A stretch of DNA of 63,997 nucleotides, counting the filler, from Stramenopiles sp. TOSAG23-6 (lineage: Eukaryota): the NCBI GenBank assembly GCA_900128565.1. It is 10 parts of 10 records of this genome, joined end to end, with 100 filler letters (N's around TTAATTAATTAA, not from the genome) between each part and the next. Parts side by side here need not be neighbours in the genome. Positions count along the whole stretch, not along the records: positions 6,442 to 12,772 come from LT636718.1; 9 more parts are not named here. One strand, written 5' to 3'. The notes under the pieces are model-generated. The model was not told the origin of the DNA, did no database searches, and saw only the letters and a program-made list of their open reading frames with translations. Below are positions 3,246 through 43,479 of the stretch, piece by piece. Numbering within the stretch: the first letter of the stretch is position 1; the number at the start of each line of letters is the position of its first letter. Both the position numbers and the translations under genes were made by a program.

Positions 3246-6120
3246 ATGGAAGCTTTAGACGCCGCATTCCCCACCATTGGTGAAGCCATGCCTTCAAATG
3301 TCACCACATTTGATGATAATGGTAAGAAGAAAAAGAAAAAGAAGAAGGATGCTTATGGCTTTGCAGCATTTGGTTTGTGCAAAAATGTCTTTGGTGCAAT
3401 TAGGCGCATTGGATATAAACAACCCACACCCATACAAAGAGCGGCTTTACCTCCAGCGTTGTCTGGTGCAGATATTGTTGCCATGGCTAGAACTGGTTCA
3501 GGTAAGACTGCTGCATTTATTATTCCTATCATAGAGCGTCTTCAAGTGCATAATAAACGCATGGGCTGTCGAGCAGTACTGATATCTCCAACTCGTGAGC
3601 TCGCTACTCAAACGCTTAAATTTGCACGGGATCTTTCTAAGTTTACCAACCTTCGTTTGTGTCTTCTTGTTGGTGGTGAAAGTATTGATCGACAGCTGGA
3701 TGTCTTATCAGCAAATCCTGATATTATTATTGCTACTCCTGGTCGAATCACACATTTATTAGAAGAAGTCAAAAGTTTTTCTTTAAATGCCGTTCAAGTT
3801 TTAGTCTTTGATGAAGCCGATCGTCTATTTGAGATGGGGTTTCGTGATCAATTAAATGATATTCTCAAGGCAACACCAGACTCAAGACAAACTATGCTCT
3901 TTTCTGCAACAATGCCAAAAATGTTGGTTGAATTCACACGTGCAGGATTACAAGATCCATCCTTCATTCGATTAGATACTGAGTCTCAAGTGAGTCCCAA
4001 CTTACGAATGAATTTTGTGACAGTGCGCCCTTCAGAAAAACCAGCAGCTTTATTGCATATCTGTGCAGAGATTATTGGTCCAGCACAGCAAACAATTATT
4101 TTTGTGTCTACGAAGTATCATGTGGAATTTATCACTGAACTTTTGAAAAGTGCTGGTCATCTTTGTGCCTGTGTCTATGGTGCACTCGACCCGATGTGCC
4201 GTAAAGCAAATATTGCAAAATTTCGTGCTGCTAGGGCACAATTTTTAATTGTGACAGACGTAGCCGCTCGTGGTATTGATATTCCAATGCTTGATAATGT
4301 CATTAATTATGATTTTCCAGCTAAGCCAAAGTTATTTGTACGTTTTCATTATGAATATCAATTTTTTTTTTCGTACGAAATGTTGTACCTAACAAATTTC
4401 GAATTTTTTTTTTTTTACAATACATGTGCATCGTGTTGGTCGTGCTGCTCGTCAGCATCGGAATGGTAGTGCTATTTCAATGGTAACTCCCGAGGACCTG
4501 CCATATATGCTCGACCTCATGCTTTTTCTTGGCAAGAAGCCAGATAATGGAGATGGTAGAGGTCCTAAATTTACATTAATAGCCGATGGTGGTGATACAA
4601 CTGCTATTGAAAAAAATGACTCTATGAAGAAGAAAACGATCTGCAAGCCTGAAAAGTATTCTCTATCTACGCAGCAACCTGATGAATTACACTATGGTGG
4701 ACTACCTCGATTTCTATTAGATAGTTCTGTTGAAGCATATGAAAGTTATAAAAATTCAAGTGTAGCAATACAAGAGACCGAGAGAGTGGCTCTAAATGGA
4801 TATAAGGCTTATATCCGGACACGTCCTCCAGCGTCCAAGACATCTCAGCATAGATGTAAAGAACTGCATCCTATTCTAGTACATCCTCTTTTCCGAGAAG
4901 CAGCGGAACTTTCAGGTAGCAACGCTACCGCTGAAATATTTGCTAGTAAACTTTCTAATTACAGGCCTTCTATGACTGTGATGGAAGTACAAAATTTGAA
5001 ATCTGGCAAAGGTGTTTTGGATGTTTTGAGAGCTAAGCGAATTGCACACCAGCGCCATATATATACAGTCCGTACTACCGAAAAGAAGAAGCATTCAGAA
5101 TGGTTATCTGCCGGTGGGTATGAAAATGATACAAATGATAAGCAAATGATCAAAACTGAAACTGTTTCAGGTGGAAAACGAAAGCAAAACCAGTGTAATG
5201 ATATCAGTGGTTCAGATACAATTGAAATATATAAAAAACATAAAACAAATAAAATAGCAAAATGTCAAGCAAAAATTCCAAAGCGAAAGTTATCGAAAGC
5301 GGAGAGAAAACGAATGAAAAAACAACGATTAAATCCGGCGATATCAAACGCGGTCAATATAAACATCAATACAGATGATAATACAAATAACACTACAAAC
5401 AATAATACAAAAACTCCATTAAGTTTCCGTGATAATTCAGTGTTTATTAATGTACGCCAATCGGATAGCGAGGTAGCAAGTAGTCGTGGTCTTTCAATAC
5501 GAGATAATGTCAATGGTGATACAGCTATAGCTGCTAGGCAACATATGCAAGAAGCTGTGCTCGATCTGATGCCCGATGAAGTGTCAAAATTAGGTGAACA
5601 GAGACGATTCTTCTGGGATAAGAAGAAAAGAAAATATGTAAAAACGTCATTAAATGACATAAAGGCTAATAAAAATAGAGTCAAAACTGAAAGTGGTAAA
5701 ATGGCTAAAAAGGAAGTTGGTAAGATTTATGAACAATGGTGTAAAAAGAATAAACGAAGCATTCTATCCATCGGGGAGGAAGAAGGTGGTGGTACTGCTG
5801 CAAGTACTATAGCCTTTGAAGCGCAAGGTATGGATTTAAAAACAATGCGAAGAAAAGGTTTATCTCGTGGCGCAATCCGGGAGAAAGAGAAGAAATCAAA
5901 GGCAGCTACTTCTGGTGGCGAATTGTATAGCGCAGAAACGATTCGAAAACAACGCAAAGAAAAAGAGAAAAGAAGAGCTAAAAATGGCCGAGGGCGTGGT
6001 GGTCGTGGTCGAAGTAGAGGTAGAGGAAGTGGTGGACGTGGTGGTAAAAAGATTCCAGGATTTGGGCAAGGTAGAGGTTCCAAATTTGGCAAGGCGGGAT
6101 CAAAAAAGCGACGACGTTAA
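3246..6120 (+). CDS. DDX54: DEAD-box RNA helicase DDX54/DBP10; exons 3246-4337 and 4426-6120
   Basis: Q motif, ARTGSGKT, PTRELA, DEAD, SAT; motif VI (KLF|VHRVGRAAR) is restored by removing 4338-4425; DBP10CT-like WDKKKRKYV...KTESG and RGG tail. Confidence 0.93.
4338..4425 (+). mobile_element. Repeated non-canonical intron (GT-AT), 88 nt
   Basis: GTACGTTTT...TCGTACGAAA...GTACCTAAC...ACAATACAT; removal joins two DDX54 ORFs in frame. Confidence 0.9.
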
Positions 6121-6441: not shown

Positions 6442-6520
6442 AAAAATATTTCAAAAAAAAATCGTTAGGTACAAAATTTCGTACGAAAAAAAATTGAATT
6501 TGAAAAAATATAAAACGTAT
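6442..6520 (-). mobile_element. Repeated intron, truncated by contig end; AT donor
   Basis: Minus strand ATACGTTTTAT...TCGTACGAAATTTTGTACCTAACG...GAAATATTTTT. Confidence 0.8.
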
Positions 6521-7788
6521 GCGCAATGCTAAACCCATAATTGAAATTACGAGTCAAAACTGTTTCAGGAATTCTTTTTTCTGTTTGTAGAGATCTACCT
6601 GAACTATTATTTATGACCGATAAAGCTGTAGCTGGTGAAATACCTGATGATTTCAAAGCAAGTAATCCTTCGCACGCTACAATAAGATGAGTTGCATTTA
6701 GACAATTATTGATGGCTTTTACAGAGTGAGCTGATCCTATTGGACCAACAACGACGACTTTACCTTCCTTGCTAAAGGTGCTGGAAACAAATTCTAGGGC
6801 TCGTTGAGACGGATTCTTTTGACCTCCAATCATCGATGTCAAAGAACCCTGAGCTGCACCAGAAGGACCGCCACTTACTGGACAATCAACATAATCTATT
6901 CCATATTGCGATAAATCTTTAGCTATTTGAACTGATAAAGTTGGATCTCCCGAAGTCGCATCAATCACTAAAGCACCACTCTTCAAAATTGCTCCAATTT
7001 TAGTACATATGTCTTTCACGATGACGCTTGTTGGTAAACAAAGCACACAAACGTCTACACTAGACAAATCCTCCAGGCTGGTCATAACAGTTGTACCAAA
7101 TTCAGCAGCATGTTGCTCAGCGATCTCTTTTGTCCTATTATAGACTAACACTGAACCAGAGCAATATTTTGTGAAACATATTTAACATTTGAAATTGTAG
7201 TATATGTTTTAATAATACGGATTTTTTTTGAGAGAAAAAGATAATTTCAAAATTTAACGTTGGAAGACTTACGTGTTTCTCTAGATGAGAAGCCATTGAG
7301 TAACCCATCGCTCCCAATCCAATGAATGCTACATTCTTTTCTTTGGATTTTTCACAAATCTTTGCCTTTTTCGCAGTATCCAATTGATTTAAAAAATGCT
7401 GTTGTTCTCTTAAAAACTTGGGCGAATAATCAACGTTGACTTTATCGAACTTTGCCGCCAAAATGATATCGTTAATGGACAGACTCTTGAGGGAATGAGT
7501 TTGAAGTGATATTGTTACCGTTCTGTACGACGTCAAGGAAATATCTGGATGATGTTGTTCAGTTTCAGCGATTTCTGCAAATGCGTTTATTGCAGACATC
7601 GCAGATTTGAAGTTACGCGCTACAAAGGAACGTTTTATCACTGGTGAGTTGTTGTCACTGTGTTTCCATAGTGGATGTGTTTGTAAAAACGAAGAAAGCT
7701 CAGCGGAAGAAAGTTCTTTGACGTCTCCTCCTCTTGTTGCACATTTCTGGCAATGCTGTTCAGCCAAAGGGGATGCCTTATTCGCCAT
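6521..7788 (-). CDS. Pterin-4a-carbinolamine dehydratase fused to 3-hydroxyisobutyrate/beta-hydroxyacid dehydrogenase; exons 7788-7273 and 7163-6521, 3' end missing
   Basis: AETEQHHPDI...LQTHS...LSINDIILA (PCD), then AFIGLGAMGYSMA, VYNRT, DCPVSGG, VKAINN (HIBADH/GarR family). Confidence 0.85.
7164..7272 (-). other. Non-family intron, GTAAGT donor, inferred AT acceptor, 109 nt
   Basis: Ends ...AAATATGTTTCACAAAATAT; no in-frame AG lies upstream of the conserved VYNRT motif. Confidence 0.65.
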
Positions 7789-8051
7789 CTTGAACTTCGG
7801 GAGTGTAGTAGTTACCTAATAGGATAGCCGATAGTAAAGTCGAAGTAGCATAACACTAAGAGTGCACTGGAGTCTTTAGTAGCAAATCAACAAATTGACC
7901 GTTCAAAATAATAATCAAAAATCATTTTTTTTCGTGTTTTTTTGATTGATTGATGTCAATGCGATGTCAATTTTTGTTTGTGTTTTATTTCATCCCTAAA
8001 GAAAGAATAGAAACTTTTAGACGATCAATTTTTCAACTATCTTTCAATCCG

Positions 8052-9327
8052 ATGCTCGCTTGTGTTAGAAATACCCCAAAACATGTCCGAGTACAATTAG
8101 TCCGACACTTGTCAGCTGCGCCAGCACTTCCGGACTGCCCAAACTTTTCGTCTGGTCCAACTGCCAAACGACCAGGATGGTCATTTGACAATCTTAATGC
8201 TGCTTGGCTAGGCCGTTCTCACCGTGCTGCAGGACCGAAACAACGACTTAAAGATGTTATTGATGCCACTCACGAGTTGTTGGAACTTCCTTCAGACTAT
8301 CTTGTTGGCATTGTTCCTGCTTCTGATACAGGCGCGTATGAAATGGCAATGTGGTCCATGTTAGGTCCACGACCTGTTGATATGTTTTATTGGGAATCGT
8401 TTGGCAAAGGTTGGGTGACAGACTCTGATAAACAACTTCAACTGAAAGATCAAAATCACTATTCTGCAGAATATGGTGAGTTGCCAAATTTATCTCTGGC
8501 AAATCCAAAGCATGATATCTGCTTCACTTGGAATGGCACAACGTCGGGTGCATGTGTGCCAAACGCAGATTTCATTTCAGAAAATCGTGAGGGTCTTACC
8601 TTTTGCGATGCTACATCTGCTGTCTTTGCAATGGATCTTGAATGGCCAAAGCTTGACGTTACAACTTTTAGTTGGCAAAAGGTTTTAGGTGGGGAAGGCG
8701 CGCATGGTGTCATTGTCTTGAGTCCTCGAGCGGTAGAAAGACTTGAGAATTTTTCTCCCGAGAGACCTTTGCCTAAGATTTTTCGAATGACAAAAAATGG
8801 AAAACTTGACGAAGCAATTTTCAAAGGGTCTACAATCAATACTCCATCTATGCTATGTGTTGAAGATTGTCATGATGCTCTAAATTGGGTTCGAAATATT
8901 GGTGGTTTAAAAGCAACAATGGCACGTGCAAATGAAAATCTTTCAGTTATTGAAAAATTTGTTTCTGAGAATGAGTGGATTGACTTTCTTGCAAATGACC
9001 CTTCATCACGTTCAAATACATCAGTTTGTCTTACACTAGATGCGAAACCTGAAGATGTCAAGGCAATGTGTACACTATTGGAGGAATCAGGTGCTGCATA
9101 TGATATTGGCTCGTATAGGGATGCTCCGCCAGGTCTTCGCATTTGGTGTGGTTCAACTGTTGAGTCCAGTGACTTACGTGTATGTTTTATATGAATTTCT
9201 AATTTATTTTTTTTTTTCGTATGAAATGTAGTACCTAACGATTTTTTTTTTGAAATATTTTTTCACAATACGTGCCCTAATGCCCTGGTTAAAATGGGGA
9301 TATGAGCAATGTTGTATTAAGAAATAA
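8052..9327 (+). CDS. serC: Phosphoserine aminotransferase (alphaproteobacterial/Methanosarcina type) with probable mitochondrial presequence; exons 8052-9179 and 9274-9327
   Basis: [50 protein letters not shown]; spliced tail [15 protein letters not shown]. Confidence 0.93.
9180..9273 (+). mobile_element. Repeated non-canonical intron (GT-GT), 94 nt
   Basis: GTATGTTTTATATG...GTACCTAAC...GAAATATTTTTTCACAATACGT; TACGTG direct repeat at both junctions. Confidence 0.88.
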
Positions 9328-9391
9328 ATACTTTTTGAATAAACGATTATCTTAGAATTTTATAACTTTAGAAATTGATTCCTTGAACGTT

Positions 9392-10877
9392 TTAATCAAC
9401 GATTTCAATTTTCTTATGTTTTTTACATACTAATGTATGCGCGTCTAGAAACAATTTATTTCTCCAATTTGATTTACTCAATTTTTTACCATCCATCTCC
9501 TTCTCAAGAATTTCATCGGCTTCTTTTATTGATTTTGCAGCTTTAAGTTTTGCTAATCGTCGCCAAAACATTATCAATGCATTATTTTCATCAGGGTACT
9601 TGCACAACTCGCCATTGGCTTGGGCACACAAATCTTTGACCCTTCTTAGAGGATGTTTCAGTTTACGATGCATTTGAATACCACTTGCAATTTCTAAATC
9701 TTTTATACTAATTTGGTAATCTGTTAAAGGTCTTTCTATAGGGGCAGGTTTGTTTGGAATAACAAATGCTGCTGCGCATCTCCTTTTACCTGCGTCATCT
9801 TCAGCCAGAATAACTTTAAACAAATGAGTAGGAACTGCTATACCATGTATTGTGAAAAAACATGAAATCACAAAATAAAATCGTTAGGTACGAAATTTCG
9901 TACGAAAAAAAACTGTACATAAAACATTGAAAAAAACTAAAACATACATGATGTCCAATCAGAGGATATTGAACTAATTGAACTTTCTCACTTTTGGACA
10001 TTTTATCAGGAAGAAAAAGTGGCCCAGATATAACAAAAACATGATCGAAAGGCTTCCAGTTTTGTTTGGACACCGTTGAACTATTTGGGTTATTTTGGTT
10101 ATTTGGGTTGGGAAGACTTTTACGTTTGAGAGATTCACTATATTGACTATTGTCGATCGTATTGTCTACTTGAGTTTGACTAGTTTTATTCACTTTATTA
10201 TTCTTTGGTTTCTTCTTTATACCCTTCACTAATTTTCGCGTAAGATATTCTAATCTAAGCCAATCAGAGCCATTGAAACACCTGTCAAGTGAAAATATTC
10301 TTACAGTGCTCTGATATTAGTAAAATTGTAGGAAAAATAAATAAATTTGAAATTGTTTCTAGACTACACACATTTCCTGTGGCACTATATTTGATGATAG
10401 TTGAAAAGTTGCATCGAGAGTTTGTTGTGTTTCCTTATGATTAGCTGCAGCAGCAAGGTGTCCCTTAGAATATCCACTATTTTTATAATCAGACGCTGTT
10501 TGATTAAGATGTTTTGGGACTGCTTGGTCAGATGTGAAACGAGAATGACTTCGAGAAACACCACGTTCTTTCTTGCAAAAACTCTCCTTGGTCAGGTGCT
10601 CTGCCACCCATTCTGGTAGGCGAAGGCGGGTGTTTATAGAAGTGACGTAGCTATCACTTTTTTCCTCTACAATATGCACAGTAGGAATACCATATGGGCA
10701 AATTGAATTGAACTTTGGCTGCAATTGCACTTGCACTGTAGGACTTGTAACCGGGTCCGGGTCTTTTTGAACTGCACCTGTGTCAGTTTTATAGAAATAA
10801 CGAAAACAATTATCAATGGTTATACCGAGGATAATACCCGCACCTAAACCATTATTGAATCGTTGCCCAAAAAGCAT
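9392..10877 (-). CDS. DNA/RNA non-specific endonuclease (EndoG/Nuc1 family); exons 10877-10372, 10281-9948, 9844-9392
   Basis: PEWVAEHLT, DYKNSGYSKGHLAAAANH, SNIVPQ, VISGPLFLP, IAVPTHLFKVIL. Confidence 0.9.
9845..9947 (-). mobile_element. Repeated non-canonical intron (GT-AT), 103 nt
   Basis: Family motifs present; restores YPLIGHH|GIAVPTH. Confidence 0.9.
10282..10371 (-). other. Canonical GT-AG intron, 90 nt
   Basis: GTGTGT...TACTAAT...GAATATTTTCACTTGACAG; restores NIVPQEMCFNGSDWLRLE. Confidence 0.85.
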
Positions 10878-11183: not shown

Positions 11184-12719
11184 TTAACGACGTCTTTGGG
11201 AAACTTTAAGCTTTGCCATTTTCTTTGCTAAAATATGTTTATAGTCACGAATTGCACCATCGAATTTTGTGACACCTTTGTCTTCACAGACCCAAATTTC
11301 ATTTGCAACTTGATCAATTAAACGAAAATCATGAGAAACTAAAACTACGCCACCTTTAAACATTTTAATTGCTTCAACAAGACCCTGAACAGCCTCAATA
11401 TCTAAATGATTTGTCGGCTCATCGAGTAAAAGCACTCCGCATGTATTGTGAAAAAATATTTTTTTTTAAATTCGTTAGGTACAAAATTGCGTACGAAAAC
11501 AAAATTCGATTTTTTTGTTAAAAAAAAAATAAAACATACTAGGAGTCATGGCAATCATAGCAAATACAAGTCGACTCCTTTGACCATCACTTAGTAAACC
11601 AATGGGTGATGTTTGATTTCCTCGTGTAAACCCAAAATTACTTAAATAAGCAATCCATGCTTCTGCACTTCTTGGTCGACCAGTCCCTTTCGCCACAGAT
11701 TTTGGAGGAAAAGTCTTTTGCATAAATTCTAGAGGCGAAAGATCTAAATCAAGAACATCAGCACTGTGTTGATGGTACAGCGCCATTTTTAATTTACTGT
11801 GCGTTTTTACTGCACCTGTAGTGGGTAACAATTCCCCACTCATTAGTTTTAAAAGAGTTGACTTTCCACAACCATTAGGACCAACCAAAGCTACTCTTGA
11901 ATCATAATCAACAGCTATATTCAAATCTTCATACAAATAATCCTCCTTCTTACCGCTGTACCCAAATGAAACATTATCAAAAGGCATTACAGGAGGGGGT
12001 AAACGATCAGTCTCTGGAAAAGTAAATACCAAAGATGACTCACGCACCTGTGGCTTTGCTACGGCATCATTTTGAATTTTTTCTAAAACTCTTTTTTTAG
12101 ACTTTGCCGAAGCTGCCTTTCCATTTGCTTTATTCACTCGAACGTAAGTTGATAACTTCGCCATGTCAGCTTGTTGCTTTTCGTATTGCTTCACCTGCAC
12201 TCTTTCTTCATCAGTAGTCACTTTTACAAATGTCTCATAATTACCTCCATAGTACTTCAGTTTAGCTCCTGCACTTCCAGAACCTCCGCTATCAAACCAA
12301 GGATTGGGTTTTAACCAAATTGTATCTGTACATACAGCATTCATAAAATCTTCTGAATGAGTTACAACTACTAAACATTTATTCTTTGGGTAATTTGCTA
12401 AATGTTCCTCCAACCATACACATGCTTCCAAGTCTAAATGATTTGTTGGTTCATCCAAAAGTAAAAGCGAAGGCGCGGCAAATAAAGCTTTTGCTAGTGA
12501 AACCCTCATCCGCCAACCTCCAGACATGTTTTTAGTTTTTCTATCCATTGGCACTAATCGATCACAGAATCCAAGACCACTAAGAATTAATCGAGCACGT
12601 GGTTCTGAACCTACTGGGTCAAGTTCATCTAGACGGTCGTATATGGCCTCCAGACGATCATCTTCAGGTCCTTCCTCCTCCATTATTAACTCAGCTAATG
12701 CTTCTAGTTTAGCACACTC
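11184..12719 (-). CDS. ABC-F family ATPase (ABCF2/ARB1-like), 5' part missing; exons 12719-11540 and 11440-11184
   Basis: [23 protein letters not shown] twice, [26 protein letters not shown]. Confidence 0.92.
11441..11539 (-). mobile_element. Repeated non-canonical intron (GT-AT), 99 nt
   Basis: Family motifs; gives [16 protein letters not shown] (an in-frame AG 6 nt further downstream is an alternative). Confidence 0.8.
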
Positions 12720-12986: not shown

Positions 12987-15160
12987 CTGCGTCAGCTATC
13001 GCACTTGGTCATTCTAATGTAGCATCAATATCGTCCGCTTCAGCAACGTCATTAGTAGCTGCGTGTGAAGTCCCAAGATTGTTCTTGAGGAGAGTAAAAC
13101 ATGGTATAATGACACGTGCTCCAGCCCCAACCGGTAGAGGTGGTGTTCATAAAGCAGCTTTGACAATGAGGAAAATGTTACGTAAACAAAAAGGTGGTCA
13201 GTATAACGTTAATCGTCTGTGTTCGTTTGATCAAATAAACTTTGCTTTATCTGGTGCATCAACGGAAGAGAATTTATCTGGTGTTTTTTGTGGTGGTGTT
13301 CGACCAATCTGGATACTTTGTGTTCATGGTGAAATCATAGTAATGCCTTTAGTCTTACCACATAAAGAAAAGGTGAGTATGTTTAATGGCATGCCACCCG
13401 TGACTACTTTTGCACCTTTTAGTTCACCGTTTAATCCTGGAGGTTTTGTGTATTACCATCGTTCAGGTGCACTTCGTATTTGTCAATTTTCAACACCAGA
13501 GGATGAAGCAGACGGTGCTAGTAAAAATAACGAAACTGGTGCTGAGCCACGTGGTGCTCTTCGTAGTCACTTTAGTGTACATGGCGGTGGTTCTATCGTT
13601 GTGCGAAAGGTTGATATGAAATGTTCTCCTCGACGTATTGTTTACATGGGTGATGCTGTCGTAAATCCTAATAACAATTCTTTAGGGGAAGGTGAAGATG
13701 AAACTTTATTACCAACATATGCAGTTTTATTTCAAACAGAAAGAGCTCGCGATATTCGTCGTGAAGCAACAGAAGAAGCTCTTCAAGTAGACGTTATTGC
13801 TGATGGATATGATCAACGTCAGCGTGATAATTATATTAATGATAATTATTGTGAAGCGAAGAGAGACATGGGTGGTGCACCTCCACTTTTTGTTCGATCG
13901 TATGATGTACGACTTATTCAATGTGGTGGTGATGGTGTTGGTTCTTGTACTGAAATATCTCGAATAGAATTAAAACCAAGAGAAGTAGGTACATGTATGA
14001 CTTTATTGTCACTTCCATTGAGCGAAACGGATCATTCAAAGAAAGAGGCTGCGGTAGCTGTTGGAACAATGCTTATACGCCCAAAAAATGAAGATGAAGA
14101 AGCAATGGGACGTGTAGTATTGTATTCTGTGAAACATGTAAATGCAAAAAGTGCGAATGCGGATGGAGTAGATGAAGAAGAACAACAACAACAAACAATA
14201 CCTGTCTTGAAAGTAACATATGAAAAAGAATTTAGAGGTGGTGTTAGTGCAATAACACAGATGAAGCTTCGTAAATATATAGCTCTGAGTTCCGGGTCTA
14301 AAATTTTCCTTTTTAAATGGATGAAAGAGTCACTTGTAGGTCTTGCCTTCTTTGATGGACCTGTTTACATCCACTCCTTAATGGCAATTCGTGATTTTGT
14401 TGTGTTTAGTGATGTTCATAAATCTGTGCAACTCCTTCGATGGAAAGAAAATGTATCTTTTTATTTTTTTTCAATTTTTTGTCTAAATTTTTTTCAAAAC
14501 ATTTTGTACTTAACAAATTTTAGTTTTTTTTTGAAATATTTTTCCAAAATACATGATCGACGTTTAGTTCTATTAGCCAAAGATTATGACCCATTAGATT
14601 CGACCGCATCATCATTTATGATTAATGACCGTCAACTTGGACTTGTCGCAGCTGACGAACAAAGTAATTTGACTGTTTTTAATTATTCGCCATTGGATGT
14701 TCATAGTAGAGGTGGACATAAACTTCTTGTAGGGGCCGATTTTCACCTTGGTCAAAAAATTTTATGTATGAATCATCGTCGTATGCTTCCTGATCGCGTT
14801 GGTCGGAAAGTATTACGGTATGCTTCTCTTTTTGGAACATTGGATGGAGGTATTGGTGCGTTGGTACCTATTGATGAAGGTGTATTTCGTCGATTACACA
14901 ATTTACAACGTGCAATGGTGATGGGTCTTTCTCAGAATGCAGGATTAAATCCATGGACATATCGAACATGGAGAGAACCTGGTGGGCACGGTTGTCTTTT
15001 GCGTAATCCCAAAAGACGCATTGCTGACGGGGTTGTTCTTTGGAAATATCCAGATTTAGATTATACGATGCAATTGAATTTAGCTAGATGTATTGGTAGT
15101 ACACCAGAAATGATTTTAGATAATTTAATGCGAATAGATCTAGCCACAATATTATTGTAA
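12987..15160 (+). CDS. CPSF1: Cleavage and polyadenylation specificity factor subunit 1 (CPSF160), C-terminal part; intron 14453-14554
   Basis: GVFCGGVRPIW, LVGLAFFD, SDVHKSVQLLRW, LLAKDY, SRGGHKLL..ADFHLG, FGTLDGGIG, AGLNP. Confidence 0.9.
14453..14554 (+). mobile_element. Repeated non-canonical intron (GT-AT), 102 nt, in frame and stop-free
   Basis: GTATCTTTTT...GTACTTAAC...GAAATATTTTTCCAAAATACAT; restores WKEN|DRRLVLLAKD. Confidence 0.88.
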
Positions 15161-15439: not shown

Positions 15440-18400
15440 ATGATGTCAGGTAGATATACATGTTATGAATTATACATATTAATTTTATTGTTTGTATGTT
15501 TTAATGGTCTCTCCGTGGAGAATCCTTCTCTGAAAGTATATTTTAATGTGACAAAAGTGGATGCACATGACTCATTGTCGTCTACTCCAAACATACGTAT
15601 TGAACAAATATCTATGGAAAAAAATGAATTGATTGTAAATGTAAACACAAAAAGAATTGATCAAAAGCATATATTATGCTTTTCAATCTCAAAAATCTCC
15701 GAAGAATCTGAAGAAAAGGTAGATTATTCTTCTTTGAGTGTATTATGCGATAATGGTACAATAAATACGTTTCTCACATCTGAAGTCACCTCAGAAATAT
15801 ATGTATTATCATCATACGCCATGTTTATCAATAGTAGTAAATTTAGGGTAAAGGCAAGTATATATATGAAATCACCTTTATTTATAGATGGTGTTCCTGT
15901 GAGTAGCGTCTTACACTTGAAGAGTGTTGACACTATCAAAAATAGTGGACCAGTTACATTTTCCGAAAAAGTTGTTGATTTTTCTAAAACGACAAGTAGT
16001 ATAGAAGATGAAGAAGTTTTTTTTCACCCAGAAACTGGAGGTTTACCTTTGTCATATGTATCATCTCCTTTACGTAAACAACTGTGGAAGTCTACAGAAC
16101 AACTGGATAAACAAACTAATGATGGTGAAACTTCTGATGGAGAGATAGTTAGTTCTTTGTTGAGTGTATTACCTACAGAATCAATACCCATAGAATCTTT
16201 AGTCAGTGCTGCTAAGAAGGACCGCGTGCACGCATGGCGATTTGATAATGTTATTCTCGATGTCGAAGCAAAAAATATTATATGTATGTTTTTTAGTATG
16301 ATGTTTTTTTCGTTTTTTTTTTCATACGAAATTTTGTACCTAACAATTTTTTATTTTTTTATTTTTTACAATACATTAATACAAGGACTAAAACAACCCA
16401 ACGTTGACCTTCCTACCAAACCAATCACTACTACAAACTATAAAAGATTCCTTCAAGCAATCTCCCAAAATTGGACAAAGACTTCCTCTGATCTTTGGAG
16501 TATTGAGACTAATATGTTTATCAAATTGAGTCCACCCATTCTGACATTCTTGCCAACTTTACCTGGATCAAAATTATTTGTCTTGCAAAAATATTTTGAT
16601 TCTCAGTTGTATCACAGGAATAAATTGAACACAACATATTCATATAATAAAACACATATTACGACAAATAATATAATGACACGATGTAAATCTAATGTTC
16701 ATCACGGTTTTATAGGTTGGCGTTGTGATTTTGGTCAACATAAAGATTGTCTTGGAGATCCATTACATATCAATTCATGTCGTAAGCTAATGTCTTTTAT
16801 CAGTCAATTAAGAAATCCTTCATTTTTTCCGTGTCGGTGTCTGGATATAGAAGATTTAAGTCACTTTCACGAAAATAAAAATGACACAATATTATCAACG
16901 GCTTCACCAATAAATACGAAAAATGGTACAAATAATGCAAATAGACAAAAATATGATGTAAAAGAAGAAAAAATTGATTGTATTACTCAACCCGTTGTAA
17001 TATTTTCACTACCACTTCCGTTATACTATTGGCATGTAATGACAGAAGGCATTCTTCCACTTGCACATACTATATCACACATTGAACGCCGTATAAAACA
17101 TGATAGTCGATATAAAGAGAAAAATTATACTTCGCCACTTTTGGTAGTAGCACAACCATGGACGAGTCGATTAGTTCCACAATTTGCTCAGGAAATGTTG
17201 AAATCTTTAGGAGGTCCCGTCATTTTATCAATGGAAGATTTTTCAAAAGGTTCAGGTTTATCTAATGTAAGCCGTTTTTGTATGTTAGATGTAACTATAG
17301 GTTTTTATCCACAAATAACACAACATAGTGAAGTAAGAGCAGCAGCTTTGTTTCTCATGAATAAGATGAGTGTCCGTCGGAGAACGTCTCGATTACTTCC
17401 TCATATACCTCATACATCTGCCATTGATGATGAATTAATAAAATCAAAAAAAACAAAAATGAAAAATGTCAGTCCACAAAAACCTCGCGTAGTTTTTATT
17501 CAAAGATCTCGACGATGTGCTGCAGCTGATGCAAGTTGGATTAAAGTATCCAAAGAAATAAATGGAAATAGTACAGGAGATTTATTTGATAATAATTTTG
17601 CTATGGTTCGCAATCATACATCATCTAATAGTACTTTTGTGAATAAAACTAATGAAAAATCAAAACAAAAAAAAATCAAAGCATCAATTCGTACGGAAAA
17701 TGCTTCTCGTGTCATTATTAATATGGATGATCTTGTAGCTGTTGCCCTAAATCTTGGTGCTGATGTTGAAGTAGTTACCATGGAAAGCTTGAGTTTACAA
17801 AAACAAATCGAGGTAGCTCATAGTGCTGATATTTTAGTCTCCGCTCATGGATCAGCGTGGGCTAATGTTATGTTTATGCGGACTGATTCCGCGGCAATTC
17901 AACTATTAGGTTATGGTTTTAAAGAAGGCTGTTTAGCTTTAGTTCATCAACAAAGAATGCTTTTTCAGAATTCTACTTTTCCTACAGATGATTTTTGCGA
18001 TGGTATTGGAGTCGATTTTCCTGCATTGGTACCAGGTACTTACTTTGAATTGGAAGAAATGGATCCGCATCATTTCAAACCGTTATTTACTTTTCCTGAT
18101 CGCTATTGTCAAAAGAATAAATCCTCATCTAACTTGACTAAAAGTTATGAAGAGTGTAGAAAAATAGAGGCAAATAATGAAATGCTAGCACGGGAGTCTC
18201 CAAGATGGCTTTGGAGCTATCATTTTAAAAGAGCATATCATTACTTCAAAGGCGCTCATTTTTATGTTGATACAAAGAGATTTTATCGTGTTATGAAACG
18301 AGCCTTGGCTGTTGTTCTTGCAGCACCGGAAACAGAAAAAGAAGCTTCTGTTGCATATGACGTCAGAGAAGAATTCGAAACGAAAGAATATTTCCAAAAG

Positions 18401-19384: not shown

Positions 19385-21208
19385 GTTCCTTACGAATAAT
19401 AATATCATTATTCAATGCGTTGTGTTCGACTGTTTCTTCTTCATCAGTCGTGTTGTACTCTTCTGATGTCATGTCGACTGTATCGATACATCTTATTTGA
19501 TGATCTGTTGAATTCTTTATTGTTCTGCTAAGAATTCTTATTGGATCATTGTCTTTATTCCTTTTTTCTGGAATAGAGTGTACAGTATCTTTAGGGTTAG
19601 GTTTTTTTTCTGGAATAGAGATTACATTATCTTTAGAAAAAACATCCGAAGAATCTTCTGTTCGTAATAAACGCGGGCAAAATATCTTTTCAGTGCGTAC
19701 ACTGTAGTTATTATCAGAATCATCATCGTCACTCATTTCTTCATCATTTGTTGGTACCGACACAACAGTACGTATTGTAAAAAAATATTTCAAAAAAAAA
19801 TCGTTAGGTACGAAATTTCGTATGAAAAAAACATTAAATTAGAAATTCATATAAAACATACACGTTGAACGTGATCTGTGAGCCATTGAAGCATACTCAC
19901 TTGATCAGATACAGACAATGCAATAATACCCTGTCTGATTTGGTATGGGGTGAAACTTTTCGAAGGTACCAACATATTGTCAGATTTAATAGTTTCAACG
20001 GCTTCATTGTTGACTGAGTTTGAATCATCATTACACAGATTTGGTTCACTATTTACTGATTTTACCTCCTTACCATGAACTCTCTCTTGAATTGTATCCT
20101 TTTCAATAATATCTACTTGTTGTTGTTGGTCGTGATTTTTATTCATGGAAGAAACAGTTGCTTTTTTATGATGCATTCGAACTCTTGATAGCTTGTCGTT
20201 TCGTTTTTTTCGTTGTCTTTCAGATGTCAAGGAACATCTACTTTCAGTATACAAATTTTCCAATGACAACGTAAGACTGTCGTTTCTTTTGTCAGCTACA
20301 TTTGAAGAACATCGTAATTTGCTATTGCGGCCATGATAAAGTGACGTCCTACTCGCTCCATGGCAAAACTTTTTATTTTGTGTTTTTAATGATTTCGGTC
20401 CTAATGTCATGCGCCGTTTCGATTGAACAATTTTAGTACGAAATTTACCACGACGTTCAAGTTCATGCATACTTGAACGATTCGATACAAACCTCACAAA
20501 ACCTCTACCATTGTTGGTATTTTTGATATTTTTCTTGGTTCTTAGAGTAGATTTGTTTTTTGGTGTGAAGCTCATTGGAACACTAGATTTACTACTTAAT
20601 TTTATTCGTTTGGGCTGACTCTGACTGGTAAGAGTTGAGTTAGGTCGTTGATTTTCTTCGTTTCCAGAAATATCTCTAACATTTCTCGTCAATCTTCGAC
20701 TTTTCTTGGTCTGTTGTTTTGGATTTCGCTCTGCAAAAGATGCTACAGTAGAACGACGTGACAGCTCACGTTTGTCTCTAGAAGATTTGGTAGTCTTTCC
20801 ACTCATTTTTTCATTCTGTTTCTTCTTCTTTCNCCATTCATCCAGCTTTTCCCGCCGAGTTAAACGACGTTGAACTAAATTGTTTTGCATTATATCGTTA
20901 TTTGGGTCAACGCCTCCTGATTTCCATGCTTCGTTGGCAAACACTTCCCCGGCAGTCCAACCTTCTTCACTCGTACCTAAAGATGAAATCTTCGATGCTC
21001 CTAACTTGGATGTAGTTTTTGTTTTACCTTCTCTCTCAGGTCGAGAATCCATCGATTTTTTTTTCAAAAGACGAAGTGGTTTGCCTAGATGTGATGATTT
21101 TAACATCTTTTTTGGGGTTTCTCGGCGTATCACGGGTGAGTTCTGTTGTACCACCCTCAAAGCTCTTCTACGCATCTTCGCGGAACGTACTCCACTTTCC
21201 ACTACCAT
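19385..21208 (-). CDS. Basic low-complexity protein of unknown function; exons 21208-19862 and 19769-19385, 3' end missing
   Basis: Two ORFs joined in frame by removing 19770-19861. Confidence 0.65.
19770..19861 (-). mobile_element. Repeated non-canonical intron (GT-GT), 92 nt
   Basis: 5' end nearly identical to the 9180 copy; ends ACAATACGT. Confidence 0.85.
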
Positions 21209-21567: not shown

Positions 21568-22504
21568 ATGAACACATTAAACAAGGGTGAAGATGCCCAG
21601 AAGCAAGCCACGTTAGCAATGGCCGATCGTCTCGAAGTTGCGGGTAGACAGCTTCAAGAGCGTGATCGTATTCGTCAACAACTGAAGAAGCAAGAAGAGG
21701 AGAAAGCAGAACTTGATGCCAAAGAAGCTGCAATAGAGGAGTATAAACGTCAGTATGAAGCAAATGCTAAAGAGCGTTTCGAGCGCTGTAATCCTGATAT
21801 CATTGAAAGAAAAAAAGAGCTACAAGAAGTAGATGATGATGTAATTGCACAAGAACGTGCACAGGAGCGTGAAAAAAAGAAGGAAAACGAAGAATTGGAC
21901 GACTCAGAAGAAGCTGTACTCCGCAGAATGCGTGCCAAGCGTATGCGGGAATTACGTGCAAAGCAGCAGAGAAGAAAACAGGGTTATGGTGACTATAGAG
22001 AAATTATTGAATCGGAGTTTTTACAAGAAGCATGTAATGCAGAATTTGTGGCAGTTCACTTTTACCACCGAGAGTTTGTTCGTTGCAAAGTGATGGATAA
22101 ACATCTTGAACGCATCTCTAGGGCACATGATACAGTGAAAATTCTAAAACTTAATGCAGAGAAAGCACCATTTTTTGTCAACAAGCTAGGAATTAAAATT
22201 CTTCCTACTGTAATAATGTTCAAAAATGGTGTTTCGTGTGATCGTATTACTGGTTTTGAACGAGTTCTTGGTGACGATAAATGTACGTCTATGTTTCAAT
22301 TTCAATTTTTTTTTCAGCAAATCTATATCTTATGGTTGCTTATACCTAACAATTACCGAATGTGACATATTCCTTCACAATATATGTCGAACACGTGCAT
22401 TGGAGTATCGCTTAATAGATGGTGGAATCATGGAGGATGAGGCTCCTATGGGAGCCTACCCAGATGATGAATTTACAGATGAAGAACTGTCTGATGAAGA
22501 CTAA
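21568..22504 (+). CDS. Phosducin-like thioredoxin-fold protein (TXNDC9/Plp1-like); exons 21568-22282 and 22386-22504
   Basis: GYGDYREI, VAVHFYH..F.RCKVMDKHL, NAEKAPFFV.KL.I..LP; spliced GDDKCRTRALEYRL. Confidence 0.88.
22283..22385 (+). mobile_element. Diverged family intron (GT-AT), 103 nt
   Basis: GTACGT...ATACCTAAC...ACATATTCCTTCACAATATAT. Confidence 0.8.
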
Positions 22505-37827: not shown

Positions 37828-38417
37828 CTATAGTGTAATTCCTACCATCTTGATAAATTCTTCATAACCGATCTGTCTGGTGGAATATATTTATTTGAAA
37901 TTTATGTGAGTATAAATGAAAATAATGTTTCATTTGAAAGAGATTTTTGATTATTAGAATGTGAAACATACCTGTCCATCTCCATCGACGTCAGCCGACC
38001 GAATGAGCTGTTGTATTTCGTCATCCGTCGCCTTTTCTCCTAAATGAGTTGATATGTAATACATTTCTTCAGCAGAAATAGAACCATTGCCATCCCGGTC
38101 TAAGATTTTGAAAGCTTCTATGTAGTCTGACTCGTTATTTCCCCCCTGTTGCATCAACTTAGCCATCATCTCGAGAAATTCTTCGAAATCAATTGTACCA
38201 CCACCATCTGTATCGACCTCGGCAATCATTTCTTTTACTTCTTCTGGTGATGGGTCTTGTCCTAATGATCGCATTACTTCTCCCATAAATTTGTGCAATA
38301 TGTGTCAACTATAAACAAATGAATTAACAAGTGATGTCTTATAAAATATTGTGCCGTTGGTTGTATAATATAGAAAATATTAACTCCTCTCCATCGATGT
38401 CTCCACCACCATCAGCA
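37828..38417 (-). CDS. Calmodulin-like EF-hand protein, 5' part missing; exons about 38417-38381, 38283-37972, 37872-37828
   Basis: [56 protein letters not shown]. Confidence 0.85.
37873..37971 (-). other. Canonical GT-AG intron, 99 nt
   Basis: GTATGTTT...TACTCAC...AAATATATTCCACCAGACAG; restores the fourth EF hand. Confidence 0.9.
38284..38380 (-). other. Probable non-canonical intron, about 97 nt, ends uncertain (AT-TG as placed)
   Basis: Stop-containing insert between GEEL and GEVMRSLG; no GT-AG pair restores the motif. Confidence 0.55.
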
Positions 38418-42388: not shown

Positions 42389-43479
42389 ATGGATTATCAA
42401 CTAATGGAAGATGGTCGAGTAAGTTTGAATCAAGGTCCGAGTAACAGCAATACACGCAATGTGGGATTGAATAGAAACAATGGTTGGGATTCGGTGTCAA
42501 GTAGTAATATTCGTGGTTGGGGAAGTACTAGTTCTAGACGTCATACTCAACAAACAGAGTTTCCCAACGAGCATGGGATAAATAAAGTAGCTGAAGATAT
42601 TAATTCATGGACACAATCATTATATTCTTGTGTGGAGCGGCTAAATGCCAACGAAATAGGCGGTCCAAAAGACACCCCAGAATTACGTAGGCGACTTCGA
42701 GTTGCGAGTGCTGACGCGACGAGAAATGTTCGTAATATCCATTCTGCTTTTCAGGAAATCGGTACGAATAAAATGGCTTCTAGTTCAAAAAAGTTCCACA
42801 AGTTGAAACGCGAATTTGAGGAAGTTTATACTCAGTTGGAGGAAGCACAAAAAAATGTCCGTCGTAAACTAAGAAACTCAATGTATGTTTTACTTTTTTT
42901 CAAATTCGAAATTTTTTTCGTACGGAATTTTGTACCTAACGATATTTTTTTTGAAATATTTTTCCAAAATACATTCAACTTGCTCAAACTCGTATAAGAA
43001 AACTTTCTTCAAATAGTGATATTCTTATGAAATCAGTAACTGGAAATAAATCTTCTATTGTAGATATAGATTCAAATTTTGAATCGAGTAATCGTCGCAG
43101 AGAAAGTAGGGATTTTGTTTCTCTACCACCACAACAACAATTATTACATGCATTTAAGCCTATTGACGTGGAACGCACTCGGTTAGAGGAAGACGAGAAA
43201 GACGCTGCTCAATTATATCAAGATTCTGTTGGCCTTCAAGAGTTAATGCAAGATCTTGGAATAATTGTTGAAAGCCAAGGACAGAAAATTGTGGAAATAG
43301 ATGATAACATTGCTGCGGGAACAACGCGAACAGGTGATGCTGCATCAGCTTTAACTGGGGCTGAAAAAAGTGACCGAGCCGCAAGAAAGAAAAGAGCATG
43401 TTTTATTCTCCTTTGTCTAGGGGGCTTAGTATTATTATTGTGGTTGTTTTGGCCAAGTTTATTTAAAAAATCACATTGA
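42389..43479 (+). CDS. Qa-SNARE syntaxin (STX7/12, Pep12-like); exons 42389-42882 and 42975-43479
   Basis: IGGPKDTPELRRRL Habc motif; SNARE motif DLGIIVESQGQKIVEIDDNI; C-terminal TM helix. Confidence 0.88.
42883..42974 (+). mobile_element. Repeated non-canonical intron (GT-AT), 92 nt
   Basis: Full consensus; removal puts both syntaxin ORFs in frame. Confidence 0.9.

What the first reader, a model, noticed from the sequence alone, without database searches (positions are those of the whole stretch)
7164..7272. 3' splice site appears set by a ruler and an AATAT motif, also in non-family introns
Hand-counted distances from the putative branch A to the last intron base in the 13 family copies are 33, 35, 39, 34, 41, 33, 34, 36, 40, 35, 45, 44 and 48 nt. 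The canonical GT-AG introns give 35 (10282-10371, TACTAAT) and 34 (37873-37971, TACTCAC). Most introns, canonical ones included, have an (A)ATAT(T) motif starting about 17-21 nt before the end. The 7164-7272 intron has an ordinary GTAAGT donor and no family core, yet apparently ends in AT with the same geometry. Inference: relaxed acceptor recognition is a property of the host splicing machinery, not only of the element.
Basis: partly seen in the sequence, partly recalled or inferred. Interest (0 to 1): 0.8.

Follow-up and report, generated by a model that had tools for sequence, protein, structure and literature searches.

The report
Non-AG intron ends in marine protist
A short intron in a marine protist gene most likely ends in AT instead of the near-universal AG and shares its tail with a transposon-like intron family that fills this genome, but no RNA data yet show where it is cut.

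Summary
The sequence facts hold. On the minus strand, 7272-7164 interrupts a pterin-dehydratase/3-hydroxyisobutyrate-dehydrogenase-like gene. It starts with a perfect GTAAGT and lacks the family core. With that donor, no AG keeps both the frame and the conserved VLVYNRT strand. AT at 7164 is in frame and gives the commonest loop length among homologues.

It is not proven. A public gene model (P0001) uses a GT-AG alternative, 7268-7151, with a very poor donor (GTCTTC). The only RNA-library contig across the site is unspliced.

All three non-family introns share the family's 3' module: AATAT at -17 to -19 and CAC/CCAC near -10.

My reading differs in two ways:
- The fixed geometry is measured from this 3' module, not from the branch point, whose distance to the end ranges from 33 to 44 nt.
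- The last two bases are a copy of the two bases before the intron (9 of 14: AT, GT, AG). That is a target-site duplication of a MITE-like introner.

So 3' cleavage seems set by position, not by AG. With only three non-family introns, all carrying the family tail, a host-wide rule cannot be separated from common descent.

This is a new variant of a known kind (introners with non-canonical ends).

The parts
7164..7272 (-). The intron of the finding under the preferred model: GTAAGT...AT, 109 nt, phase 0
   Evidence: removing it gives open frames of at least 80 aa on both sides and the peptide ...SHLEKH|CSGSVLVYNRT. Not hit by the family profiles.
7267..7272 (-). 5' splice site GTAAGT
   Evidence: Among the 13 other introns, +3 is A in 12 of 13, +5 is G in 12 of 13 and +6 is T in 13 of 13.
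7196..7202 (-). Putative branch box TACTACA, a weaker match than the family TACCTAAC
   Evidence: A7198 lies 34 nt from 7164. No lariat data.
7164..7187 (-). 3' module TGTTAAATATGTTTCACAAAATAT, shared with the family terminus
   Evidence: rank 102 of 124086 positions; aligned to AAATATTTTTTCACAATACAT; positional test.
7151..7152 (-). First AG after the branch box (ttcAG). Out of frame with the GTAAGT donor; used as acceptor in the public model.
   Evidence: offset +13, not in frame.
7151..7268 (-). Rival GT-AG intron of the public gene model P0001 (GTCTTC...CAG, 118 nt)
   Evidence: One search shows it reproduces P0001's ...SHLEKHVMLVYNRT....
7273..7815 (-). Exon 1: Pterin_4a domain plus the first 21 profile positions of the NAD-binding Rossmann domain (GLGAMG)
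6521..7163 (-). Exon 2: the rest of NAD_binding_2 and the start of NAD_binding_11
   Evidence: The end of the exon is fixed by comparison with P0018.
6442..6520 (-). Family introner copy in the same gene, cut off by the contig end. It begins /ATACGT, with A at +1.
   Evidence: E 4e-12. P0018 reads GFSI(T)|LMAKD across the site.
10282..10371 (-). GT-AG intron (GTGTGT...TACTAAT...GAATATTTTCACTTGACAG) in an Endonuclease_NS gene
   Evidence: profile positions 111 to 115 are continuous; three upstream AGs skipped.
37873..37971 (-). GT-AG intron (GTATGT...TACTCAC...AAATATATTCCACCAGACAG) in an EF-hand gene
   Evidence: DVDGDGQ|IGYEEF; a CAG 4 nt upstream is skipped.
4338..4425 (+). Family copy, the best-documented GT...AT case (DDX54/DBP10-like helicase)
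   Evidence: KLF|VHRVGR; the exon ends on the F that aligns with ...KLF / ...KIF of DDX54 and DBP10; the nearest in-frame AG would delete motif VI.
9180..9273 (+). Family copy ending CGT, with CGT also upstream (direct repeat GT/GT)
9845..9947 (-). Family copy in the Endonuclease_NS gene
11441..11539 (-). Family copy in an ABC-type ATPase gene. An in-frame GAG lies 6 nt downstream, so a GT-AG reading is not excluded.
14453..14554 (+). Family copy in a CPSF_A-domain gene. 102 nt, itself in frame and free of stops.
   Evidence: (profile 159 to 162).
16284..16376 (+). Family copy
19770..19861 (-). Family copy ending CGT, with CGT upstream
22283..22385 (+). Diverged family copy ending CACAATATAT
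   Evidence: E 0.019; E 1e-10; GDDK-C-RTRALEYRL.
42883..42974 (+). Family copy, the best profile match
58870..58985 (-). Family copy ending AAAAAGCAT. An in-frame AAG 3 nt before the end allows a GT-AG reading.
52584..52693 (-). Family copy lying between an importin-beta-like exon and an unrelated PH_3 ORF. GT..AT removal is not in frame. Possibly a chimeric contig join or a 5'-UTR intron.

Best explanation
7272-7164 (minus strand) is a real spliceosomal intron in a pterin-dehydratase/HIBADH-like gene. It most likely begins at the perfect GTAAGT and is cut at a non-AG site, most likely after AT at 7164.

Its geometry matches that of a MITE-like introner family, with at least 21 copies in these 10 contigs. 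The family carries its own 5' splice site (GTATGT), a TACCTAAC branch box and a conserved 3' terminal module (GAAATATTTTTYCAMAATAC). The unit removed is the element plus one copy of a 2-nt target-site duplication. The last two intron bases (AT, GT or AG) are therefore whatever lay at the insertion site.

*Inferred mechanism:* U1/U6 and U2 recognise the strong 5' and branch signals. The second step then takes the position a fixed number of bases after the 3' module, regardless of the dinucleotide.

The 7164-7272 intron and the two GT-AG introns carry the same 3' module at the same place. They are most simply old or related derivatives of such elements. The two GT-AG introns end ACAG where the family has ACAT.

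*Shown:* the sequence anatomy, the frames, the protein continuity and the direct repeats.
*Inferred:* that splicing occurs at these exact sites, and how the site is chosen.
For: **The intron of the finding**
- Frames and donor are as stated.
- With the GTAAGT donor, the only in-frame AGs (7125, 7116) delete the conserved VLVYNRT strand.
- The AT model gives 18 residues between GLGAMG and NRT. That is the mode among homologues (33 of 102). The GT-AG model gives 15; only 2 of 102 homologues have 15 or fewer.
- The rival donor GTCTTC has bases at +3, +5 and +6 that none of the 13 other introns has.

**Non-AG ends in the family**
- 8 of 11 complete copies give open frames of at least 30 aa on both sides after GT..AT removal. 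A ninth gives a short C-terminal exon. In a tenth, a contig linker cuts the upstream frame.
- The helicase exon ends on the F that aligns with DDX54 and DBP10.
- The Pfam profiles of CPSF_A and Endonuclease_NS are continuous across two copies.
- 7 of 12 copies have no in-frame AG from -3 to +24.

**Transposon-like anatomy**
- All 21 copies lie in sense orientation to the adjacent ORFs.
- The 2 nt upstream equal the last 2 nt in 9 of 14 introns. 835 of 100000 random pairings do as well. The matches include GT/GT twice, against a GT frequency of 0.052 in coding sequence.

**Shared 3' module**
- It sits at a fixed position in all three non-family introns.

**Outside support**
- P0018, a 99 % identical protein from another assembly, reads straight across the site of the family copy in this same gene.
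Against: - No spliced RNA was seen for any intron. The one contig from an RNA library across the site (7046-7218) is unspliced.
- P0018 starts at the GTG just after the site, as if the intron were retained there too.
- A public gene model uses a GT-AG alternative. A loop as short as that model's does occur in 2 of 102 homologues.
- 5 of 12 family copies have an in-frame AG within -3 to +24 nt, so they could be GT-AG.
- The family profiles do not detect the three non-family introns. Global alignment to the consensus is only weakly above shuffles: z 2.8, 1.0 and 3.4. Common descent is therefore not shown.
- In 7164-7272 the upstream AC does not match the terminal AT.
- In-frame ends at 7167 (AA) or 7161 (GC) are not excluded.
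Confidence: 0.5

Rival explanations
1. First reader's reading. The host spliceosome measures the 3' splice site with a ruler from the branch point and an AATAT motif. This applies to all introns whatever their origin, so non-AG use is a general host property.
For: - All three non-family introns have branch-to-end distances of 34-35 nt, with ATAT at -17 to -18.
- The chance product is 1.2e-3, or 1.2e-5 with the CAC element.
- AGs between branch box and end are skipped in 10282-10371 (three of them) and in 37873-37971 (a CAG 4 nt upstream).
- The three introns are not detectably family members.
Against: - Branch-to-end distance ranges from 33 to 44 nt in family copies, while the module-to-end distance is fixed.
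- The terminal dinucleotide copies the upstream dinucleotide.
- There are only three non-family introns. Each carries a tail resembling the family terminus, and two also contain TTTCAAAT, which occurs only 17 times outside family copies in the whole window.
- The skipped AGs in 10282-10371 are either too close to the branch or in poor context (GAG, AAG). Ordinary YAG scanning also explains that intron.
Confidence: 0.25
2. The intron is an ordinary GT-AG intron, as in the public gene model: 7268-7151, donor GTCTTC, acceptor ttcAG, giving ...EKHVMLVYNRT. The AT end is a misreading.
For: - P0001 (100 % identical, 384 aa) has exactly this junction.
- The acceptor is a good CAG and the first AG after the branch box.
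- Short loops of 14-15 residues exist in 2 of 102 homologues. P0045 (...HLRSHNLFVWNRT) is one.
Against: - The donor ignores a perfect GTAAGT 4 nt upstream. It differs from all 13 other donors at +3, +5 and +6.
- The loop length is rare, 2 of 102 against 33 of 102 for the AT model.
- The codons just upstream of the AG (SGSV) match homologues such as P0002 (SESV).
- P0001 stops at the next, family intron (...NYGFSIAH). The model builder evidently could not handle that intron, and I could not establish what evidence P0001 rests on.
Confidence: 0.15
3. There is no non-AG splicing at all. The elements are removed or absent at the DNA level (polymorphic or precisely excised insertions), or the genes are broken or misassembled in a fragmentary assembly.
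For: - P0018 comes from a 4215-bp contig that lacks the family copy in this gene but seems to keep the 7164-7272 intron. That fits a DNA presence/absence polymorphism.
- Contigs break, and are sometimes chimeric, at family copies.
- The element is at very high depth in one RNA library, unspliced.
Against: - 21 of 21 copies are in sense orientation, each carrying GTATGT and a TACCTAAC box. DNA excision would not need either feature.
- Many essential-looking genes would be broken.
- An independent contig confirms 7046-7218 without gaps.
Confidence: 0.07

Closest known systems
Introner elements of Micromonas pusilla and Aureococcus (MITE-type introners)
   Same: Many near-identical short introns, with terminal inverted repeats and short target-site duplications. 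The element brings one splice site and the other forms at the duplication. This is as described in passages of the review PMC11282704.
   Different: There the duplication supplies a canonical AG. Here it is mostly AT (also GT), so the deduced 3' end is non-canonical. The TSD is 2 nt rather than 3. Splicing is not shown by RNA here.
Non-canonical, MITE-derived introns of the tunicate Fritillaria borealis
   Same: Transposon-derived introns with non-AG 3' ends that are removed by the major spliceosome. The host machinery (U2AF paralogues) adapted to them. Sources: abstract of PMC13326754 and passages of PMC11282704.
   Different: Fritillaria introns are mostly AG-AC or AG-AT and lack a canonical 5' GT. 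Here the 5' site is a strong GTATGT and there is a yeast-like branch box. The organism is a protist. U2AF could not be examined because no genome is held.
Introner elements and non-canonical introns of Amoebophrya
   Same: A marine protist with repeated introns that have inverted repeats at both ends, 3-5-nt direct repeats over the boundaries and non-GT-AG ends (passages of PMC7789003).
   Different: Amoebophrya shows no dominant dinucleotide pair and no clear 5' consensus. Here the 5' end is canonical and only the 3' dinucleotide is free. The predicted terminal helix is only 4 bp, and overall folding energies are mostly not below shuffles (z -0.65, -2.84, -1.34, 0.05).
Relaxed 3' splice-site choice in S. 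cerevisiae lacking Prp18
   Same: Non-YAG 3' sites are used. Use is enhanced by upstream poly(U) and by the potential to pair with the first intron nucleotide (abstract of PMC10711555). The introns here have a T-run before the end.
   Different: That is a mutant phenotype producing errors. Here it would be the normal, productive site. Presence or divergence of Prp18 and Slu7 could not be tested.
U12-type AT-AC introns
   Same: Non-GT-AG termini. In copies with an AT/AT repeat, the same mRNA would result from an AT...AC cut.
   Different: There is no ATATCC 5' consensus and no TCCTTAAC box near the 3' end (both consensus sequences recalled, not from a call). In copy 4338-4425, the AT-AC register would change the conserved F to Y.

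Membership tests
The window's introner family, as a home for intron 7164-7272 | Detected by a profile built from the family copies | tested here: not met
   nhmmer with --max finds no hit at E<=10. A widened profile finds none at E<=100.
The window's introner family, as a home for intron 7164-7272 | Central core CGTACGAAATTTTGTACCTAAC | tested here: not met
   No GTACCTAAC with up to 2 mismatches inside 7164-7272.
The window's introner family, as a home for intron 7164-7272 | 3' terminal module at the same distance from the end | tested here: met
   PWM rank 102 of 124086. ATAT at -18 and CAC at -10. Probability of both by chance is 0.026.
The window's introner family, as a home for intron 7164-7272 | Whole-length similarity to the consensus above shuffles | tested here: inconclusive
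   z 2.8; 8 of 500 mononucleotide shuffles score as high.
MITE-type introner (for the family itself) | Many sequence-similar copies, all inside genes and in sense orientation | tested here: met
   21 hits at E<0.05. 21 of 21 lie on the strand of the adjacent long ORF.
MITE-type introner (for the family itself) | Target-site duplication | tested here: met
   The 2 nt upstream equal the last 2 nt in 9 of 14 introns (AT x6, GT x2, AG x1). 835 of 100000 permutations do as well. The AG/AG case could simply reflect the usual CAG|GT...CAG consensus.
MITE-type introner (for the family itself) | Terminal inverted repeats | tested here: met
   GTAT...ATAC pairs in the minimum-energy fold of 3 of 4 copies, together with nested TTTCAAAT/ATTTGAAA arms. 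The repeats are short, and energies are mostly not below shuffles.
MITE-type introner (for the family itself) | Removal from mRNA at the deduced boundaries | tested here: inconclusive
   No joints in 3 RNA libraries at low cover. Only indirect support from frames and protein continuity.
MITE-type introner (for the family itself) | Filled and empty sites, or an autonomous partner with a transposase | not testable with these tools
   No genome is held. The metagenome scan did not complete. P0018 lacks the copy, but whether it comes from DNA or RNA is unknown.
Canonical U2-type GT-AG intron (for 7164-7272) | GT at the 5' end with a consensus donor | tested here: met
   GTAAGT at 7272-7267.
Canonical U2-type GT-AG intron (for 7164-7272) | AG at the 3' end, in frame with that donor, with conserved residues kept | tested here: not met
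   The only in-frame AGs, 7125 and 7116, delete VLVYNRT. The AG at 7151 is out of frame by one base.
U12-type AT-AC intron | ATATCC-like 5' site and a branch box close to the 3' end | tested here: not met
   The 5' end is GTAAGT and the branch-like box lies 34 nt from the end. The consensus sequences are recalled.
Euglenid or Amoebophrya-type structure-defined intron (for 7164-7272) | Helix that brings the two intron ends together | tested here: not met
   No terminal helix in the fold of 7164-7272, 10282-10371 or 37873-37971.

The most novel reading that the evidence does not exclude
An abundant, uncultured marine protist has a spliceosome that sets the 3' cut by position relative to an intron-internal module and accepts any terminal dinucleotide (AT, GT, AG). 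This has let a MITE with a 2-nt target duplication colonise, by extrapolation, thousands of coding sites as GT-AT introns. It also means that public GT-AG-based gene models for this lineage are systematically wrong at most introns.
Probability: 0.35. Interest if true: 0.85.

Novelty: new variant of a known kind. Interest (0 to 1): 0.6.

Why it matters
**For splicing mechanism.** If RNA data confirm it, this would be a case where a strong, yeast-like 5' site and branch box coexist with a free 3' dinucleotide. That is a natural experiment on how the second catalytic step finds its site. Otherwise this has been approached only through mutants (Prp18, Prp8, Prp22) or through the very different Fritillaria and Amoebophrya systems.

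**For intron gain.** It would show that an introner need not land on AG to survive. That widens the set of sites open to intron gain.

**For annotation.** Gene models of this organism that allow only GT-AG are truncated or shifted at these introns. P0001 ends at the family intron, which distorts protein catalogues built from such assemblies.

**In print.** Full-text searches for 'MAST-3' with 'introns' and 'splice', and for 'introner' with 'marine stramenopile', found nothing on this. The library does not cover subscription journals.

Tried and rejected
- **Whole genome.** None is held. U2AF35, Slu7, Prp18 and genome-wide logos could not be checked.
- **RNA runs.**
  - Only three seawater metatranscriptomes held small shares of the stretch (0.06-0.10).
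  - Laid on 6442-12772, they gave no splice joint for any intron. The only joints were between family copies.
  - Most of the stretch had no cover.
  - One 151-nt contig stops at 9180 with 2 loose letters. That fits a spliced end but cannot be read.
- **Protein database.** I looked for transcript-derived fragments across the junction.
  - None of 55-177 aa.
  - Among longer and near-length proteins, only P0001 (a gene model) and P0018 (starts after the junction) are close.
- **Metagenome contigs.** The scan for more family copies or orthologous loci did not complete in six tries. The cap was then reported as used.
- **Rfam.** No RNA family in the window.
- **Terminal-helix model of 3' site choice.** Rejected as a general rule. 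It is absent from the three non-family introns, and the energies are mostly not below shuffles.
- **AT-AC register.** Rejected for copy 4338-4425. It remains undecidable where the direct repeat is perfect.
- **My first idea that the N blocks hide sequence.** Rejected. They are linkers between contigs.
- **Scan for further non-family introns** (3' module plus donor plus branch box). It found none in a sense position.
Full report
**What the window is.** The N blocks are not gaps in one chromosome.
- Each is N44-TTAATTAATTAA-N44.
- They separate ten stretches of 6341, 6331, 6329, 6327, 6320, 6317, 6317, 6316, 6305 and at least 6194 bases, in falling order of length.
- The third exon of the gene studied here, known from a near-identical protein, is not found beyond the linker.
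- The window is therefore ten contigs of a fragmentary assembly laid end to end. Several contigs break inside copies of the repeat described below.
- G+C is about 35 %.
- Only three seawater metatranscriptomes hold small parts of the stretch.
- The one identical database protein carries a source label that hints at an uncultured marine stramenopile.

**The gene and the intron.** A gene runs on the minus strand from 7815.
- Exon 1 (7815-7273) holds a Pterin_4a domain and the first 21 profile positions of an NAD-binding Rossmann domain, including GLGAMG.
- Exon 2 (7163-6521) holds profile positions 24-149 and the start of the HIBADH-type second domain.
- One domain is split, so something between the two parts must be removed.
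- Exon 1 ends ...GAG AAA CAC and is followed by GTAAGT (7272-7267).
- Removing 7272-7164 (109 nt) joins frames that are open for at least 80 codons on each side. It gives ...SHLEKH|CSGSVLVYNRT....
- The intron then ends ...CACAAAATAT.
- The first AG after the branch-like box is ttcAG at 7152-7151, one base out of frame.
- With the GTAAGT donor, the only in-frame AGs (7125, 7116) delete the conserved strand VLVYNRT.

- Taking the penultimate A of the CTAAC-type box as branch point, I count 33, 35, 39, 34, 34, 41, 33, 34, 35, 44, 44 nt for eleven complete family copies.
- I count 36 for a diverged copy, 35 for 10282-10371, 34 for 37873-37971 and 34 for 7164-7272.
The values 40 and 45 belong to copies whose ends I could not fix.
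- ATAT starts at -19 in 9 of 12 family copies, and at -18, -17 and -18 in the three other introns.
- In 20000 shuffles of each intron interior, ATAT falls in a five-base window with probability 0.10-0.11, product 1.2e-3.
- Together with a C[AC][AC] element at -12 to -8, which all three also have, the product is 1.2e-5.
- The shared geometry and motif are therefore real, although the motif and windows were chosen after seeing the family.

**The family.** A profile from eleven copies finds 21 copies at E<0.05.
- The consensus is GTATGTTTTA-T-run-CAAATTCGAA-T-run-CGTACGAAATTTTGTACCTAAC-T-run-GAAATATTTTTYCAMAATACAT.
- All 21 copies lie on the strand of the adjacent long ORF.
- After GT...AT removal, 8 of 11 complete copies give frames open for at least 30 codons on both sides. 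The other three:
  - One gives a short C-terminal exon.
  - In one, a linker cuts the upstream frame.
  - One (52584-52693) sits between an importin-beta-like exon and an unrelated PH-domain ORF and is not in frame. It is perhaps a chimeric join.
- In the DDX54/DBP10-like helicase, the exon ends on the F that aligns with ...KLF / ...KIF of the solved proteins. The next exon starts VHRVGR, and the nearest in-frame AG would delete that motif.
- The Pfam profiles of CPSF_A and Endonuclease_NS are continuous across two further copies.
- Against a blanket claim, 5 of 12 copies have an in-frame AG between -3 and +24 and could be GT-AG. One of them (58870-58985) ends AAAAAG-CAT.
- About seven copies are firm non-AG cases by sequence. 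None is verified by RNA.

**The last two bases are a target-site duplication.**
- In 9 of 14 introns with trustworthy flanks, the two bases before the 5' GT equal the last two intron bases: AT/AT six times, GT/GT twice, AG/AG once.
- AT makes up 0.094 and GT 0.052 of coding dinucleotides. Only 835 of 100000 random re-pairings give nine matches.
- The AG/AG case may simply be the usual CAG|GT...CAG pattern.
- I left out copy 12894-12986 because its 5' flank repeats that of 14453-14554, so the contig start is chimeric.
- The element proper thus runs GTAT...ATAC, with short terminal inverted repeats. These pair in the minimum-energy fold of 3 of 4 copies, leaving a 2-nt overhang.
- The removed unit is the element plus one copy of the duplication, which restores the original coding sequence.
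- This is the known introner principle: one splice site is brought by the element and the other forms at the duplication (passages of PMC11282704). Here, however, the duplication is rarely AG.

**AT or AG for 7164-7272.**
- A public gene model, P0001 (384 aa, 100 % identical), reads ...SHLEKHVMLVYNRT....
- That corresponds to an intron 7268-7151, donor GTCTTC and acceptor CAG. It is the only GT-AG solution that keeps LVYNRT.

Against the public model:
- It skips the perfect GTAAGT four bases upstream.
- At +3, +5 and +6 its donor has bases that none of the 13 other introns has.
- It gives 15 residues between GLGAMG and NRT. Only 2 of 102 homologues have 15 or fewer. The AT model gives 18, the mode, found in 33 of 102. 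Of 135 homologues examined, 33 lack the motif.
- The codons before the AG (SGSV) resemble homologues such as P0002 (SESV).
- P0001 itself breaks off at the next, family intron (...NYGFSIAH).

For the public model:
- The acceptor is a good CAG.
- Short loops do exist (P0045).

Ends at 7167 or 7161 are also in frame. I prefer 7164 because it aligns with the family terminus.

My estimate:

| Reading | Probability |
|---|---|
| GTAAGT donor with a non-AG end | about 0.7 |
| Public GT-AG model | about 0.15 |

**RNA evidence.**
- Laying the three RNA libraries on 6442-12772 gave no splice joint for any intron, canonical ones included. Cover of the organism was thin.
- One 173-nt contig (7046-7218; one mismatch, no gaps) runs unspliced across the site. 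It independently confirms the sequence there.
- The family element reaches depths in the thousands in one library.
- P0018 (271 aa, 99 % identical, from a 4215-bp contig of another assembly) reads NYGFSITLMAKD... straight across the site of the family copy at 6520. It is either spliced or an empty site.
- By comparison with P0018, that family copy begins /ATACGT, with A at +1.
- P0018 starts with M at the GTG of ...S-V-LVYNRT, as a bacterial-style gene caller would if 7164-7272 were retained.
- Splicing of 7164-7272 has therefore not been seen anywhere.

**Is 7164-7272 outside the family?**
- By profile search, yes. Neither it nor the two GT-AG introns is hit.
- By global alignment to the consensus against shuffles, the signal is weak: z 2.8 (8 of 500 shuffles as good), 1.0 and 3.4.
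- All three share the last 22 nt with the family. An ungapped matrix of the family tail ranks their ends 102nd, 976th and 323rd of 124086 positions.
- Two of them contain TTTCAAAT, a family word seen only 17 times outside family copies.
- Both GT-AG introns end ACAG where the family has ACAT.
- Either they are old relatives in which only the constrained parts survive, or the module is a host signal that the element mimics. With three introns, the two cannot be separated. In both cases the module looks constrained.

**Ruler.**
- Branch-to-end distance ranges from 33 to 44 nt in the family, because T-runs between branch box and module vary. Module-to-end distance is almost constant. A ruler, if any, starts at the module.
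- In 37873-37971 a CAG four bases upstream of the used CAG is skipped.
- In 14453-14554 a TAG ten bases after the branch A is skipped.
- In 10282-10371 three AGs are skipped, but these are very close to the branch or in poor context.
- This fits positional choice, but ordinary rules are not excluded.

**Mechanism proposed (inferred).**
- Strong 5' and branch signals commit the intron.
- At the second step, the base two positions after the terminal ...A(C/T)A(C/T) of the module is docked, whatever the dinucleotide.
- This is perhaps helped by the T-run and by pairing of intron ends in young copies. It recalls the relaxed, poly(U)-assisted non-YAG choice of yeast lacking Prp18 (abstract of PMC10711555).
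- It also recalls the adapted U2AF of Fritillaria (abstract of PMC13326754).
- The terminal helix cannot be the general device, since the three non-family introns lack it.

**Novelty.**
- Introners with target duplications, and lineages with non-canonical transposon-derived introns (Fritillaria, Amoebophrya), are known.
- The new variant is a canonical 5' site and branch box combined with a duplication-derived, mostly AT 3' end.
- Searches of the held library found no report of it for this group. Subscription journals and supplements were not visible.

Noticed in passing
window 6342-6441, 12773-12872, 19202-19301, 25629-25728, 32049-32148, 38466-38565, 44883-44982, 51299-51398, 57704-57803: The window is ten contigs joined by N44-TTAATTAATTAA-N44 linkers, in falling order of length. 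Genes on the two sides of a linker are unrelated, and several contigs end inside family copies.
   Followed up: yes
window 6511-6530 (-) and 19376-19400 (-): Two family copies begin with A instead of G: /ATACGT and /ATATGT. The second has a GTAAGG 9 nt upstream. Both 3' ends are lost at contig ends, so the matching terminal bases are unknown.
   Followed up: partly
window 52584-52693 (-): This family copy lies between an importin-beta N-terminal exon and an unrelated PH_3 ORF that starts at the ATG formed by the element's terminal AT plus G. It could be a chimeric assembly at the repeat or a 5'-UTR intron.
   Followed up: partly
window 12873-12933 vs 14432-14492 (+): The start of one contig repeats 21 nt of exon plus the first part of the intron at 14453, then continues as a different copy. 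This looks like a chimeric contig start.
   Followed up: partly
window 58870-58985 (-): This copy ends AAAAAGCAT instead of AAAATACAT. That creates an in-frame AG 3 nt before the family end, a possible step from a non-AG to a canonical acceptor.
   Followed up: no
window 14453-14554 and 16284-16376 (+): Two family copies are multiples of three (102 and 93 nt) and free of stops. Retention would give in-frame insertions rather than truncation.
   Followed up: no
window 6442-6653 and 12590-12772: In one seawater RNA library the family element reaches mean word depths of about 8000 and 2300. Flanking exons are at 0-10. The element, or close relatives of it, is very abundant in that sample.
   Followed up: no
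P0001: The public gene model of this gene stops inside the family intron (...NYGFSIAH), whereas P0018 continues ...NYGFSITLMAKD... for 63 more residues. Models of this assembly are probably truncated at many such introns.
   Followed up: partly
window 58285-58332 and 60453-60491: Short internal runs of TTAGGG-like repeats (GTTAGGGTTAGGG...) inside the last contig, next to very low-complexity, T-rich tandem repeats (60551-60649, 61236-61461).
   Followed up: no
window 60689-60803 (-): A weak family-like hit (E 0.06-0.12) with a tail TTGAAATATTTTTTTTCACAAAAT, at the 3' end of a long minus-strand ORF. Possibly another degenerate copy.
   Followed up: no
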